Of a stretch of DNA of 61,771 nt, positions 21,425 to 21,706 are shown one piece after another. The stretch lies in assembly GCA_946619755.1 (NCBI GenBank), contig CAMOMI010000002.1, forward strand, positions 1 through 61,771, written 5' to 3'. A program made the translations under genes and the position numbers. The first letter of the stretch is position 1, and every line of letters begins with the position of its first letter. Source of the DNA: an uncultured Clostridia bacterium. Its GTDB lineage: Bacteria; Bacillota_I; Bacilli_A; RF39; UBA660. The notes under the pieces are model-generated. The model was not told where the DNA came from, did no database searches, and saw nothing but the letters and a program-made list of their open reading frames with translations.

Positions 21425-21706
21425 CTAAAACATTTGAATTTCGTCTCTAACTATTAATTTAATTCCAGTACGATCTTCACTATCAACTTCAACTTCTGCA
21501 AAGGCCGGTATACATACGAGATTATGTCCACTAGGTGCGACAAAACCTCTTGCTATAGCTATTGCTTTTATTGCTTGGTTTAAAGCTCCTGCTCCTATTG
21601 CTTGTATTTCTACTTTTCCACTTTCTTTAATTTGTCCCGCTATAGCTCCTGCTACAGAATTAGGATTACTTTTGCTACTAACTTTTAAAATATCAATCTT
21701 CTCCAT
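21425..21706 (-). CDS. spoVS: Stage V sporulation protein S homologue
   Basis: MEKIDILKVSSKSNPNSVAGAIAGQIKESGKVEIQAIGAGALNQAIKAIAIARGFVAPSGHNLVCIPAFAEV...IKLIV is near-collinear with bacterial SpoVS. Start moved to ATG 21706 after AAGGAAGGAAAG. Confidence 0.85.
   Translation of the reverse strand: MEKIDILKVSSKSNPNSVAGAIAGQIKESGKVEIQAIGAGALNQAIKAIAIARGFVAPSGHNLVCIPAFAEVEVDSEDRTGIKLIVRDEIQMF

What the first reader, a model, noticed from the sequence alone, without database searches (positions are those of the whole stretch)
21425..21706. Phage copy of sporulation regulator SpoVS
Seen: the 93-aa ORF is almost collinear with bacterial SpoVS (ILKVS.KSNPNSVAGA.AG...E.G..EIQAIGAGALNQA.KA.AIARGFVAPSG..L.CIPAF......D.E.RT.IKLIV). 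Established: SpoVS is a small regulator of stage V sporulation confined to endospore-forming Firmicutes and relatives. Inference: this is an auxiliary gene that lets the phage modulate host sporulation or dormancy, and it assigns the host to spore-forming Firmicutes.
Basis: partly seen in the sequence, partly recalled or inferred. Interest (0 to 1): 0.65.

Follow-up and report, generated by a model that had tools for sequence, protein, structure and literature searches.

The report
Phage-borne SpoVS homologue, gut phage
A roughly 62-kb phage from ruminant gut carries an intact, selectively maintained copy of the small bacterial protein SpoVS; such phage copies are already catalogued, and this one does not show that the host forms spores.

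Summary
Window 21425-21706 (minus strand) encodes a 93-aa protein that matches Pfam SpoVS end to end (E 6.7e-39). It models as the solved SpoVS/Alba-like fold (TM 0.88-0.95) and keeps every residue that is invariant in 71 bacterial SpoVS proteins.

The window is a near-complete phage genome with about 30% GC. It encodes a terminase, a portal, a YonO-like RNA polymerase, a DNA polymerase-primase and its own sigma factor. Near-identical DNA occurs mainly in bovine and goat gut metagenomes.

All nine backbone relatives examined keep SpoVS at the same site, with dN/dS of 0.03-0.29. More distant relatives (L118, MT835495, FP_oengus) lack it, so it is a selected accessory gene. The phage copies form their own clade (NJ bootstrap 82/100). 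The best bacterial match is only 77%, so no donor genus can be named.

SpoVS is not confined to endospore formers: it occurs in Thermus, Atribacterota, Actinomycetota and low-GC gut "Tenericutes/Bacilli" MAGs. The host is probably a low-GC Bacillota member, but sporulation is not shown.

The most likely mechanism is an untimely extra dose of a working SpoVS that perturbs the host's stationary-phase and sporulation programme. A role on the phage's own nucleic acids is a serious rival. Phage SpoVS genes are already annotated (PHROG 35646, Bacillus phage BCD7, virome AMG lists), so this is a new member of a known kind.

The parts
21425..21706 (-). spoVS homologue, 93 aa (MEKIDILKVSS...RDEIQMF); single SpoVS/Alba-like domain with phage-clade-specific N-terminal (MEK) and C-terminal (RDEIQMF) extensions
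   Evidence: Pfam PF04232 E 6.7e-39, profile 1-82/83. PDB 2EH1 E 2.8e-26. AlphaFold model pLDDT 86, TM 0.88-0.95 to B. subtilis and Thermus SpoVS. All invariant bacterial residues kept. dN/dS 0.03-0.29.
21713..21723 (-). Shine-Dalgarno sequence AGGAAGGAAAG, 6 nt upstream of the spoVS ATG
   Evidence: Read directly from the sequence.
21693..22022 (-). Upstream zinc-ribbon ORF (109 aa, CPEC...CPQC). Its stop overlaps the spoVS start by 14 nt, which suggests translational coupling. It is the conserved left border of the accessory slot.
   Evidence: ORF list. phrog_2834 E 2.3e-5. A homologue sits directly upstream of SpoVS in all relatives, and is also present in L118, where SpoVS is replaced by another gene.
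21198..21416 (-). Downstream small basic ORF (72 aa, GRPKGSKNKK AT-hook-like N-terminus), starting 8 nt after the spoVS stop; variable among relatives
   Evidence: ORF list. Present in L087-L090, L111 and L113; absent or fragmentary in L112, L114 and L004. Only a weak DUF7202 match.
26096..26845 (-). Phage sigma-70-family factor in the same minus-strand early gene block. Context only: it co-occurs with SpoVS here and in an unrelated prophage.
   Evidence: TIGR02937 83.5 bits (cut-off 42.9). The next best families, SigB/F/G, SigK, SigF, SigG and SigE, are all far below their cut-offs. Pfam Sigma70_r2. Sigma70_r2 genes lie near SpoVS in L001/L002 and in L004 and L111-L114.
16423..19431 (-). YonO-like single-subunit RNA polymerase (DFDGD motif) with C-terminal HTH, about 2 kb downstream of spoVS. 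Backbone marker used to find relatives.
   Evidence: phrog_4291 E 0, 1100 bits. 57% identity to human-faecal phage MT835495, 44% to Faecalibacterium phage FP_oengus, 40-43% to actinophages.

Best explanation
The gene encodes a working SpoVS-family protein: a small Alba-fold protein, probably dimeric and nucleic-acid-binding. An ancestor of this phage subgroup captured it from a low-GC Bacillota-like source, and selection has kept it since.

It lies in the phage's replication and nucleotide-metabolism gene block, translationally coupled to a zinc-ribbon ORF, so it is probably made early or in mid-infection. Every residue invariant in cellular SpoVS is kept. The phage protein should therefore make the same contacts as the host protein, adding SpoVS activity at a time and dose the host would not choose. 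In Bacillus the host gene is sigma-H-dependent and switched on at the onset of sporulation.

The most likely result is disturbance of the host's stationary-phase developmental switch. That switch covers polar septation, sigma-E/sigma-K activation, and sigma-D-dependent autolysis and cell separation. If the host sporulates, spore formation would be blocked or delayed so the cell keeps supporting phage production.

Shown here: identity, fold, conservation, purifying selection, accessory distribution, phage context. Inferred: time of expression, nucleic-acid binding, the host target, and the effect on sporulation.
For: - Identity and fold.
- All invariant residues kept; changes at positions that are at least 80% conserved in bacteria are mostly conservative (I/L, K/R, V/I, D/E, G/A), the exceptions being V25Q/M and E87R.
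- dN/dS of 0.03-0.29, with dS up to about 1 within the phage clade.
- Retained at the same site in 9 of 9 backbone relatives. In the most distant ones (L114, L004) it is the best-conserved gene of the 20-kb region, at 82-85% against 33-80% for the others.
- Absent from L118, where a different gene fills the slot, and from MT835495 and FP_oengus. It is therefore an accessory gene, not core.
- Dosage sensitivity is documented. In B. thuringiensis, deleting spoVS1 lowers pro-sigE and spoIIE expression and delays polar septa, and spoVS1 overexpression almost abolishes spores (PMC8510167).
- In B. subtilis, spoVS mutation affects sigma-K- and sigma-D-directed genes (cited in PMC2732212).
- The phage also carries its own sigma factor, whose next-best similarities are to sporulation sigmas, though below their thresholds. 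Phage sigma factors of that type cut spore yield by up to 99% (PMC10294663).
- SpoVS and a sigma-70-family gene also co-occur in an unrelated temperate prophage (L001/L002).
Against: - The host is unknown and nothing shows that it sporulates.
- SpoVS is widespread in non-sporulating lineages.
- No other sporulation-family domain was found in the 36 window ORFs scanned against Pfam.
- The gene was not in the text or held supplements of the systematic survey of sporulation genes enriched in gut phages of spore formers (PMC10294663).
- In several independent phages SpoVS lies next to recombination, replication or DNA-modification genes, which fits a phage-directed nucleic-acid role equally well.
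- Expression is unproven. A bovine metatranscriptome has contigs over the region, but depth is flat and DNA carry-over cannot be excluded.
Confidence: 0.45

Rival explanations
1. The phage uses SpoVS as a general Alba-like nucleic-acid-binding protein for its own DNA or RNA. It might organise or protect replicating or modified phage DNA, or shield phage transcripts from the RNase Y decay machinery. On this view it has nothing to do with sporulation and the host need not sporulate.
For: - Fold search finds archaeal Alba DNA-binding proteins and the RNase P/MRP subunits Rpp20/Rpp25 and Pop6/Pop7 after SpoVS itself (E 1e-4 to 1e-3, TM 0.45-0.65).
- The literature assigns SpoVS to the Alba superfamily (PMC2732212, PMC11621453).
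- Cellular spoVS sits in RNA-metabolism neighbourhoods across phyla: recA-rny-ymdB-spoVS-miaB, or rRNA methyltransferase-rluA-...-spoVS-serS.
- In independent phages it lies beside recombination, replication or DNA-modification genes. Here it follows the zinc-ribbon ORF, DUF1599 'nucleotide modification associated' and DUF4406, and is followed, after small ORFs, by an endonuclease, a Cas4-like exonuclease and the RNA polymerase. In prophage L001 it lies between a PDDEXK/DUF2800 gene and an Enc34 ssDNA-binding gene. In BCD7 it lies near a RusA resolvase and 7-deazaguanine genes. In Streptomyces phage BRock it lies beside a RuvC-like resolvase and an SSB.
- SpoVS occurs in non-sporulating bacteria.
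Against: - Early replication modules are also where phages usually place host-takeover genes, so position is not specific.
- No DNA or RNA binding by any SpoVS has been shown in the papers read.
- The very high similarity to cellular SpoVS (77%) argues for conserved host partners rather than adaptation to phage nucleic acid.
Confidence: 0.3
2. The phage protein is a dominant-negative decoy. It forms mixed dimers with host SpoVS, or titrates a host partner such as a YunD-like phosphoesterase, and so inactivates the host pathway rather than adding to it.
For: - The phage clade has its own N- and C-terminal extensions and fixed differences at positions that are at least 80% conserved in bacteria (I22, Q/M25, K27, V72, V74, D78, G81, R87).
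- PDB 9a7h is an integrative model of a B. subtilis YunD-SpoVS complex, so SpoVS has at least one protein partner.
- Alba-fold proteins are typically dimers, and a SpoVS dimer was proposed in PMC2732212.
Against: - Most differences are conservative and every invariant residue is retained.
- Some cellular SpoVS proteins also have C-terminal tails.
- The loss-of-function and overexpression phenotypes overlap, so this rival gives a similar outcome and sequence cannot separate it from the best explanation.
Confidence: 0.1
3. The gene is a neutral passenger picked up recently from a host, or the match reflects bacterial contamination or mis-assembly of the contig.
For: Only the general fact that viral contigs can carry host fragments. 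The B. cereus-group 'viral' regions L094-L105 may partly be of this sort.
Against: - The gene is embedded, with overlapping or near-abutting ORFs, in a co-oriented phage gene block.
- It is found at the same site in independently assembled phage contigs from many samples.
- It is under purifying selection, and the phage clade is monophyletic and distinct from all bacterial copies.
- GC content matches the rest of the phage.
Confidence: 0.03

Closest known systems
Cellular SpoVS (Pfam PF04232; B. subtilis SpoVS/SP5S, B. thuringiensis SpoVS1 and SpoVS2, Thermus thermophilus SpoVS-related protein, PDB 2EH1/2EK0)
   Same: Single domain of about 86 aa, collinear without gaps. 69% identical to B. 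subtilis SpoVS (9a7h_B) and 54-55% to the Thermus protein. Same fold (TM 0.88-0.95) and all invariant residues kept.
   Different: - Encoded in a phage early gene block, not in the recA-rny-ymdB-spoVS-miaB or other housekeeping contexts.
- Carries short extra N- and C-terminal tails and a set of clade-specific substitutions.
- No sigma-H promoter can be asserted.
- Forms a separate clade from bacterial copies.
Previously annotated phage SpoVS genes: PHROG 35646; Bacillus phage BCD7 gp031; Lysinibacillus phages LysYB1/2; Bacillus phage KLEB27-3; Streptomyces BRock-like phages; spoVS listed as an AMG in soil and oxygen-minimum-zone viromes (PMC6172770, PMC8940887)
   Same: A host-like SpoVS domain carried as an accessory gene in tailed phages, usually in early, replication or recombination regions. 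Function untested in every case.
   Different: - Only 41-62% identical to those in isolate phages of credible host.
- The backbone is different: an Oengus-like siphovirus-type genome with a YonO-like RNA polymerase from ruminant gut.
- The nearest phage copies (80%) are in unrelated uncultured phages or prophages, L091 and L001.
Phage-encoded sporulation regulators (SigF/SigG-like sigma factors, Spo0A, SpoVT, SpoIIID homologues; Schwartz et al., PMC10294663)
   Same: The concept is the same: a phage copy of a host developmental regulator that could alter entry into dormancy. This phage also carries its own sigma-70-family factor.
   Different: - SpoVS does not appear in the text or held supplements of that survey.
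- The biochemical activity of SpoVS is unknown.
- The sigma factor here passes only the general sigma-70 model, not any sporulation-sigma model.
Archaeal Alba / Sso10b chromatin proteins and the RNase P/MRP subunits Rpp20/Rpp25 and Pop6/Pop7
   Same: Same beta-alpha-beta-alpha-beta-beta topology (Foldseek E 1e-4 to 3e-3, TM 0.45-0.65). This is the basis for predicting nucleic-acid binding.
   Different: Sequence identity is only 11-19%. There is no evidence here for DNA or RNA binding. This is a resemblance of fold, not membership of those families.

Membership tests
SpoVS family (Pfam PF04232) | Full-length match to the family profile above the curated threshold | tested here: met
   132 bits against a cut-off of 24, E 6.7e-39, profile positions 1-82 of 83.
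SpoVS family (Pfam PF04232) | Small single-domain protein with the fold of solved SpoVS structures | tested here: met
   93 aa. AlphaFold2 model with mean pLDDT 86.4 and beta-alpha-beta-alpha-beta-beta order. Foldseek TM 0.88/0.95 to 9a7h_B (B. subtilis SpoVS) and 0.88/0.92 to 2EH1.
SpoVS family (Pfam PF04232) | Retention of residues invariant across cellular SpoVS | tested here: met
   Columns that are 100% conserved in 71 bacterial SpoVS proteins are identical in the window protein. Within the 7-member phage clade the only departures are minor ones at A48, I51 and R79 (R79K in two members). The same core is invariant in alignment A1.
Host-orthologous spoVS (the chromosomal sporulation gene) | Conserved chromosomal neighbourhood (recA-rny-ymdB-spoVS-miaB or another housekeeping context) | tested here: not met
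   The window gene is flanked by phage ORFs. The bacterial contexts were established.
Host-orthologous spoVS (the chromosomal sporulation gene) | Sigma-H-dependent expression at the onset of sporulation, and a sporulation phenotype | not testable with these tools
   The sigma-70-type promoter scan is at chance level (54 found, 52.4 expected). No host or culture is available.
Phage auxiliary / host-takeover gene (moron-like accessory gene) | Host-like gene inside a bona fide phage genome, variably present among related phages | tested here: met
   Phage hallmark genes are present. SpoVS is present in 9 relatives and absent in L118, MT835495 and FP_oengus, with another gene in the same slot in L118.
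Phage auxiliary / host-takeover gene (moron-like accessory gene) | Maintained by selection | tested here: met
   dN/dS of 0.03-0.29 in 18 of 19 pairwise comparisons; the remaining pair was saturated at synonymous sites.
Phage auxiliary / host-takeover gene (moron-like accessory gene) | Expressed during infection and changes host physiology | tested here: inconclusive
   Contigs from a bovine-gut metatranscriptome (X10) cover the region, but depth is flat and DNA carry-over is possible. The physiological effect cannot be tested here.
Alba superfamily (nucleic-acid-binding) | Alba-type fold | tested here: met
   Alba, Sso10b, Rpp20/25 and Pop6/7 structures are found at E 1.6e-4 to 3e-3 with probability 1.00.
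Alba superfamily (nucleic-acid-binding) | Binds DNA or RNA | not testable with these tools
   Only predicted in the literature (PMC2732212).

The most novel reading that the evidence does not exclude
SpoVS may not be a sporulation protein in essence. It may be a conserved Alba-fold nucleic-acid-binding factor tied to RNA or DNA metabolism.

Several unrelated phage lineages have captured it independently and placed it beside recombination, replication or DNA-modification genes. These include this ruminant-gut group, a temperate prophage of a gut MAG, Bacillus phage BCD7 and Streptomyces BRock-like phages.

On this reading the phage uses SpoVS on its own, possibly modified, DNA or on its transcripts, in hosts that may not sporulate at all. 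Candidate hosts include the low-GC gut 'Bacilli/Tenericutes' lineages, which carry a chromosomal spoVS next to serS, sufU/sufB and rluA. These phages would then offer a way to find the biochemical activity of SpoVS, which none of the papers read here has established.
Probability: 0.3. Interest if true: 0.6.

Novelty: new member of a known kind. Interest (0 to 1): 0.35.

Why it matters
Phage copies of host developmental regulators are a current topic, because phages may control bacterial dormancy in guts and soils. SpoVS itself has known genetics but no established biochemical activity in the papers read here.

This finding adds a well-defined clade of phage SpoVS genes under purifying selection in ruminant and other gut phages, alongside a phage sigma factor and a phage RNA polymerase.

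It also carries a caution for virome work. A spoVS hit should not be read as evidence that the host forms spores, because the family is widespread in non-sporulating bacteria. At least one database record that seems to widen the host range, 'Stenotrophomonas phage TS-12', looks mislabelled.

Tried and rejected
- Megablast of 20 kb of the window against 50,697 phage records found nothing. There is no close cultured relative.
- NCBIfam gave no family for the protein. I read this as the absence of a matching model in that library, not as evidence against SpoVS, because Pfam, PHROGs and the PDB all agree.
- No tRNA genes and no Rfam families, so these give no host clue.
- The sigma-70 promoter scan around the gene was at chance level, so no promoter is claimed.
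- Donor-genus phylogeny failed. The protein is too short and too conserved. The phage clade is monophyletic, its nearest neighbours are other phage copies (80%), and the best bacterial copies (76-77%) come from several different classes.
- None of the 80 GTDB loci shares any other gene with the window, so no prophage copy points to a host.
- 'Stenotrophomonas phage TS-12' (72% identity) looked like SpoVS in a phage of a Gram-negative host. I rejected it: the locus has 34% GC and is 87% identical in nucleotides to a B. cereus-group prophage region.
- A search for a paper describing the YunD-SpoVS complex (PDB 9a7h) found no text on it, so I use only the entry title.
- Other sporulation-type domains were sought across 36 window ORFs and none was found.
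- Reads from a metatranscriptome were laid on the region but cannot separate RNA from DNA carry-over.
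Full report
**1. The observation**

The ORF listing and the raw sequence show a minus-strand ORF with its stop at 21425-21427. An ATG at 21704-21706 gives 93 aa, MEKIDILKVSSKSNPNSVAGAIAGQIKESGKVEIQAIGAGALNQAIKAIAIARGFVAPSGHNLVCIPAFAEVEVDSEDRTGIKLIVRDEIQMF. A strong Shine-Dalgarno sequence, AGGAAGGAAAG, lies 6 nt upstream at 21713-21723.

The protein matches Pfam SpoVS (PF04232) at E 6.7e-39 over profile positions 1-82 of 83. It matches PHROG 35646 'sporulation protein' at E 4.2e-26 and the solved Thermus thermophilus SpoVS-related protein 2EH1/2EK0 at E 2.8e-26. NCBIfam returned nothing, which I take as a gap in that library.

An AlphaFold2 model built on 26 homologues has mean pLDDT 86.4 and a beta-alpha-beta-alpha-beta-beta order. 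Foldseek places it on B. subtilis SpoVS (9a7h chain B, 69% identity, TM 0.88/0.95) and on the Thermus structures (TM 0.88/0.92). Archaeal Alba proteins and the RNase P/MRP Alba-type subunits follow at E 1e-4 to 3e-3.

**2. What the window is**

Almost all ORFs are on the minus strand and GC content is 27-34%. PHROG matches identify:
- large terminase (11030-12775)
- portal (9103-10410)
- head maturation protease (7200-9113)
- a 1339-aa DNA polymerase-primase (31935-35954)
- tail proteins and a tape measure (59558-61099)
- a 1002-aa protein (16423-19431) matching phrog_4291 at 1100 bits. It carries the DFDGD motif of YonO-like single-subunit RNA polymerases and a C-terminal HTH.

The window ends fall inside the 195-nt repeats of the tape-measure gene, which continue from the last kilobase into the first 340 nt. 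The window is therefore probably a near-complete, circularly permuted genome of about 62 kb.

No integrase-sized ORF is left unexplained. I did not scan every ORF, so I do not claim a lifestyle. No tRNA or Rfam element is present.

There is no nucleotide-level relative among 50,697 phage records. By protein, the RNA polymerase is 57% identical to an unannotated human-faecal phage (MT835495), 44% to Faecalibacterium phage FP_oengus and 40-43% to many Arthrobacter, Gordonia, Streptomyces and Curtobacterium phages. The terminase is 76-80% identical to those of Gordonia and Streptomyces phages and of human-faecal phage contigs.

Near-identical DNA is found mainly in bovine and goat gut metagenomes.

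**3. The gene in its phage lineage**

The closest proteins in the 5.8-billion-protein collection (80-96% identity) sit on contigs of 57-64 kb. Loci fetched for several of them (L004/L005, L111-L114), together with IMG/VR contigs L087-L090, share the window's backbone.

In all nine, SpoVS occupies the same place. It lies directly after a zinc-ribbon ORF whose stop overlaps the SpoVS start (window 21693-22022). Small ORFs follow, then an endonuclease, a Cas4-like exonuclease and the RNA polymerase.

Against the two most distant relatives (L114, L004; RNA polymerase 62-63%), SpoVS at 82-85% is the best-conserved gene of the 20-kb region. Nei-Gojobori dN/dS for window-versus-relative and relative-versus-relative pairs is 0.03-0.29, with dS of 0.24-1.0 inside the clade.

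The region is mosaic. L112 has 100% identical RNA polymerase and terminase, but its SpoVS is only about 87-90% identical.

SpoVS is not universal in the wider group:
- L118 has an RNA polymerase about 61% identical, plus the same zinc-ribbon, sigma-factor and DUF4406 genes. It has no SpoVS at all, and a 68-aa membrane protein and a HAD-like gene fill the slot.
- MT835495 and FP_oengus are not among the SpoVS-positive phage records.

SpoVS is therefore an accessory cassette, acquired within a subclade and then kept under purifying selection.

**4. Relation to bacterial SpoVS, and the donor question**

In an alignment with 71 bacterial SpoVS proteins from the GTDB scan, every column that is 100% conserved in bacteria carries the same residue in the window protein. 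The phage clade differs at positions that are at least 80% conserved mostly by conservative changes (L22I, R27K, I72V, I74V, E78D, A81G). It also has V25Q/M, E87R, a three-residue N-terminal extension and a C-terminal tail of about four residues beyond the usual bacterial end.

A neighbour-joining tree on 86 core columns recovers the ten backbone-related phage copies as a clade in 82 of 100 bootstraps. The most similar sequences outside it are other phage or prophage copies: L091, and L001, the latter lying in a temperate prophage with integrase, an S24 repressor, a DUF2800/PDDEXK gene, an Enc34 SSB, a sigma factor and VapE. Both are 80% identical. The best bacterial copies reach 76-77% and come from MAGs labelled Clostridia, Eubacteriales, Eubacteriaceae, Firmicutes and Bacilli. 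The protein is too short and too conserved to name a donor genus.

**5. Is SpoVS a marker of spore formers?**

It is not, on the following evidence:
- The solved structure is from Thermus.
- Rigden & Galperin report orthologues in all complete genomes then available from Chloroflexi, Thermotogae and Deinococcus-Thermus. Within Firmicutes they did find it in sporulating bacilli and clostridia and not in lactobacilli, listeria, staphylococci or streptococci (PMC2732212).
- My scan of one genome per GTDB species returned 68-75% identical copies in Candidatus Caldatribacterium, an Actinomycetota MAG, Coriobacteriaceae EMTCatB1 and a Sericytochromatia MAG. It also returned dozens of gut MAGs with 25-33% GC labelled uncultured Bacilli, Tenericutes or Mycoplasmatota, including Candidatus Fimihabitans, which NCBI files under Mycoplasmatota.

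None of these loci shares another gene with the window. Clustering their neighbours and scanning representatives against NCBIfam shows housekeeping contexts. One is recA, RNase Y, the TIGR00282 (YmdB-type) metallophosphoesterase, spoVS and MiaB, found in Bacillaceae, clostridia and Caldatribacterium. The other, in the low-GC gut MAGs, has an rRNA methyltransferase, an RluA-family synthase, SerS and SufU/SufB. MAG labels and binning can be wrong, but the pattern is broad.

Among isolate phages, SpoVS is carried by Bacillus and Lysinibacillus phages and also by six Streptomyces phages.

The apparent Stenotrophomonas case (TS-12, 72%) should be discounted. Its locus has 34% GC and is 87% identical in nucleotides to a B. 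cereus-group prophage region.

For this phage, three things point to a low-GC, walled Bacillota host: 30% GC, a lysin with a C39-like peptidase and two SH3_3 domains, and the nearest cellular SpoVS proteins. Whether that host sporulates is open.

**6. How it most likely works**

Published evidence on SpoVS:
- In B. subtilis, spoVS is needed to pass stage V. Its loss lowers sigma-K-directed cotA and gerE, lets the spoIIB spoVG double mutant bypass its stage II block, and raises sigma-D-directed expression, cell separation and autolysis (summarised in PMC2732212).
- In B. thuringiensis both paralogues are sigma-H-dependent. Loss of spoVS1 delays polar septation, gives disporic cells and lowers pro-sigE and spoIIE transcription. 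Strains overexpressing spoVS1 made almost no spores, and the authors suggest that both high and low levels disturb the network (PMC8510167).
- The fold predicts nucleic-acid binding.
- PDB 9a7h models a YunD-SpoVS complex from in-cell cross-links.

The phage protein keeps the entire invariant core and is under purifying selection. The simplest reading is that it is an active SpoVS supplied from the phage's early gene block, independent of sigma-H. That would mistime or overdose a dosage-sensitive regulator of the stationary-phase switch.

The same gene block encodes a sigma-70-family factor (26096-26845). It passes only the general TIGR02937 model, and its next-best, sub-threshold similarities are to SigB/F/G, SigK, SigF, SigG and SigE. 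Phage sigma factors of that kind have been shown to cut spore yield by up to 99% (PMC10294663). A Sigma70_r2 gene also lies seven ORFs downstream of SpoVS in the unrelated prophage L001/L002.

I put this mimic-and-overdose model at 0.45.

**7. The main rival**

In five independent phage contexts, four place SpoVS beside genes that act on DNA:
- Here it follows the zinc-ribbon ORF, DUF1599 (nucleotide-modification associated) and a DUF4406 nucleoside-deoxyribosyltransferase-like gene, and is followed, after small ORFs, by an endonuclease, an exonuclease and the RNA polymerase.
- In L001 it lies between a PDDEXK/DUF2800 gene and an ssDNA-binding gene.
- In BCD7 it lies near a RusA-like resolvase and the 7-deazaguanine (Que) genes.
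- In Streptomyces phage BRock it lies next to a RuvC-like resolvase and an SSB.
- In Lysinibacillus phage LysYB1 the neighbours are mostly hypothetical.

This pattern, the RNA-metabolism neighbourhoods of the cellular gene, and the presence of SpoVS in non-sporulating bacteria all fit a general Alba-like role on phage DNA or RNA. I give this 0.3. A dominant-negative decoy gets 0.1, and neutral passenger or contamination 0.03; these are discussed in the structured fields.

**8. Comparison with what is known, and novelty**

Phage SpoVS homologues are already catalogued: PHROG 35646, annotated genes in BCD7, LysYB1/2, KLEB27-3 and BRock, and a BFVD entry from an uncultured phage. spoVS has been listed as an auxiliary gene in soil and oxygen-minimum-zone viromes (PMC6172770, PMC8940887). 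None has been tested.

The systematic survey of sporulation genes in gut phages does not mention spoVS in its text or held supplements.

This is therefore a new member of a known kind. What it adds is a coherent, selected clade in Oengus-like gut phages that have their own RNA polymerase and sigma factor, and a clear demonstration that the gene does not diagnose a spore-forming host. I score interest at 0.35.

**9. Limits**

- The host is not identified.
- Expression is not shown. Contigs from a bovine metatranscriptome cover the gene at flat depth, and DNA carry-over is possible.
- No promoter can be claimed.
- The tree rests on 86 columns.
- The GTDB hit list is the top 80 of at least 420 confirmed relatives and is biased towards sequences similar to the query.

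Noticed in passing
window 20740-20993: The AT-rich, roughly 300-nt intergenic region downstream of the SpoVS block holds 7 copies, in both orientations, of an AAAGTGGGAA-like 10-mer (14 in the whole window against 7.2 expected), plus long A/T homopolymer runs. It looks like an iteron or regulatory cluster. A repeat-rich stretch lies in the same relative position in L118 (about 6960-7270). The homopolymers probably explain the depth spike of 8877 in run X1.
   Followed up: partly
window 31754, 42653, 42922, 43200, 43454 (41 nt each): Five copies of a conserved intergenic 41-mer (TTTCYATA...TTTCACGCGAAAA...AAAAGA on the + strand; all local genes are on the - strand). It is a candidate phage promoter or regulatory element, possibly for the phage's own RNA polymerase or sigma factor (family D7).
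   Followed up: no
window 16423-19431 and 11030-12775: A YonO-like single-subunit RNA polymerase (DFDGD motif, C-terminal HTH) is shared at 40-44% with Faecalibacterium phage FP_oengus and with many actinophages, where it is usually annotated only as 'HTH DNA-binding protein'. The large terminase is 76% identical in amino acids to those of high-GC Gordonia and Streptomyces phages, although this genome has 30% GC.
   Followed up: partly
window 26096-26845: Phage-encoded sigma-70-family factor. It passes only the general TIGR02937 model. The best sub-threshold similarities are to SigB/F/G and to the sporulation sigmas K, F, G and E. It is conserved (40-98%) in all backbone relatives, including the SpoVS-less L118.
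   Followed up: partly
window 30045-30395, 30373-30648, 30841-31314: Candidate anti-defence genes next to a phage ssDNA-binding gene: a crAss001_48 ('Sequestin') domain protein and an Acb2/Tad1-hairpin protein (a family that includes cyclic-nucleotide sponges acting against CBASS and Thoeris).
   Followed up: no
window 37291-38205, 39216-40019, 40221-40979: Three paralogous DUF6353 genes in a row (E 1e-50 to 1e-76); function unknown.
   Followed up: no
window 50325-55880: An 1851-aa tail-fibre-like ORF with collagen-like 9-nt (Gly-X-Y type) repeats at 53538-54161 and a 21-nt x 14 tandem array at 55146-55565.
   Followed up: no
L115 (MW302330.1, 'Stenotrophomonas phage TS-12', 5933-16178): The record's host label looks wrong. 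The locus has 34% GC and is 87% identical in nucleotides to a B. cereus-group prophage-like region (L100). It also carries an ABC-transporter ATPase and a phosphohydrolase gene.
   Followed up: yes
L094-L097 and L100-L105 (IMG/VR regions from isolate genomes): A 91-aa SpoVS paralogue (…GPRKSRS/GPRKRRS tail) lies inside predicted prophage regions of B. cereus-group genomes, near integrase/ArpU and phage 11143-like structural genes. Its length equals that of B. thuringiensis SpoVS2, which experimentally affects the timing of spore release (PMC8510167). SpoVS2 might therefore be prophage-associated. Identity with the HD73 protein was not checked.
   Followed up: partly
PDB 9a7h (fold-search hit): There is an integrative model of a B. 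subtilis YunD-SpoVS complex built from in-cell cross-links. The neighbour of cellular spoVS, the TIGR00282/YmdB family, is a metallophosphoesterase, and from my own recollection YunD is annotated as a phosphoesterase/nucleotidase-type protein. That would hint at a link between SpoVS and phosphoesterases. No text on the complex was found in the papers searched.
   Followed up: partly
window 19439-19992: The Cas4-like/PD-(D/E)XK exonuclease appears split into two ORFs here (19798-19992, 64 aa; 19439-19774, 111 aa). The same two pieces occur in relatives, whereas L004 calls a single 184-aa gene. This may be a frameshift, programmed or otherwise.
   Followed up: no
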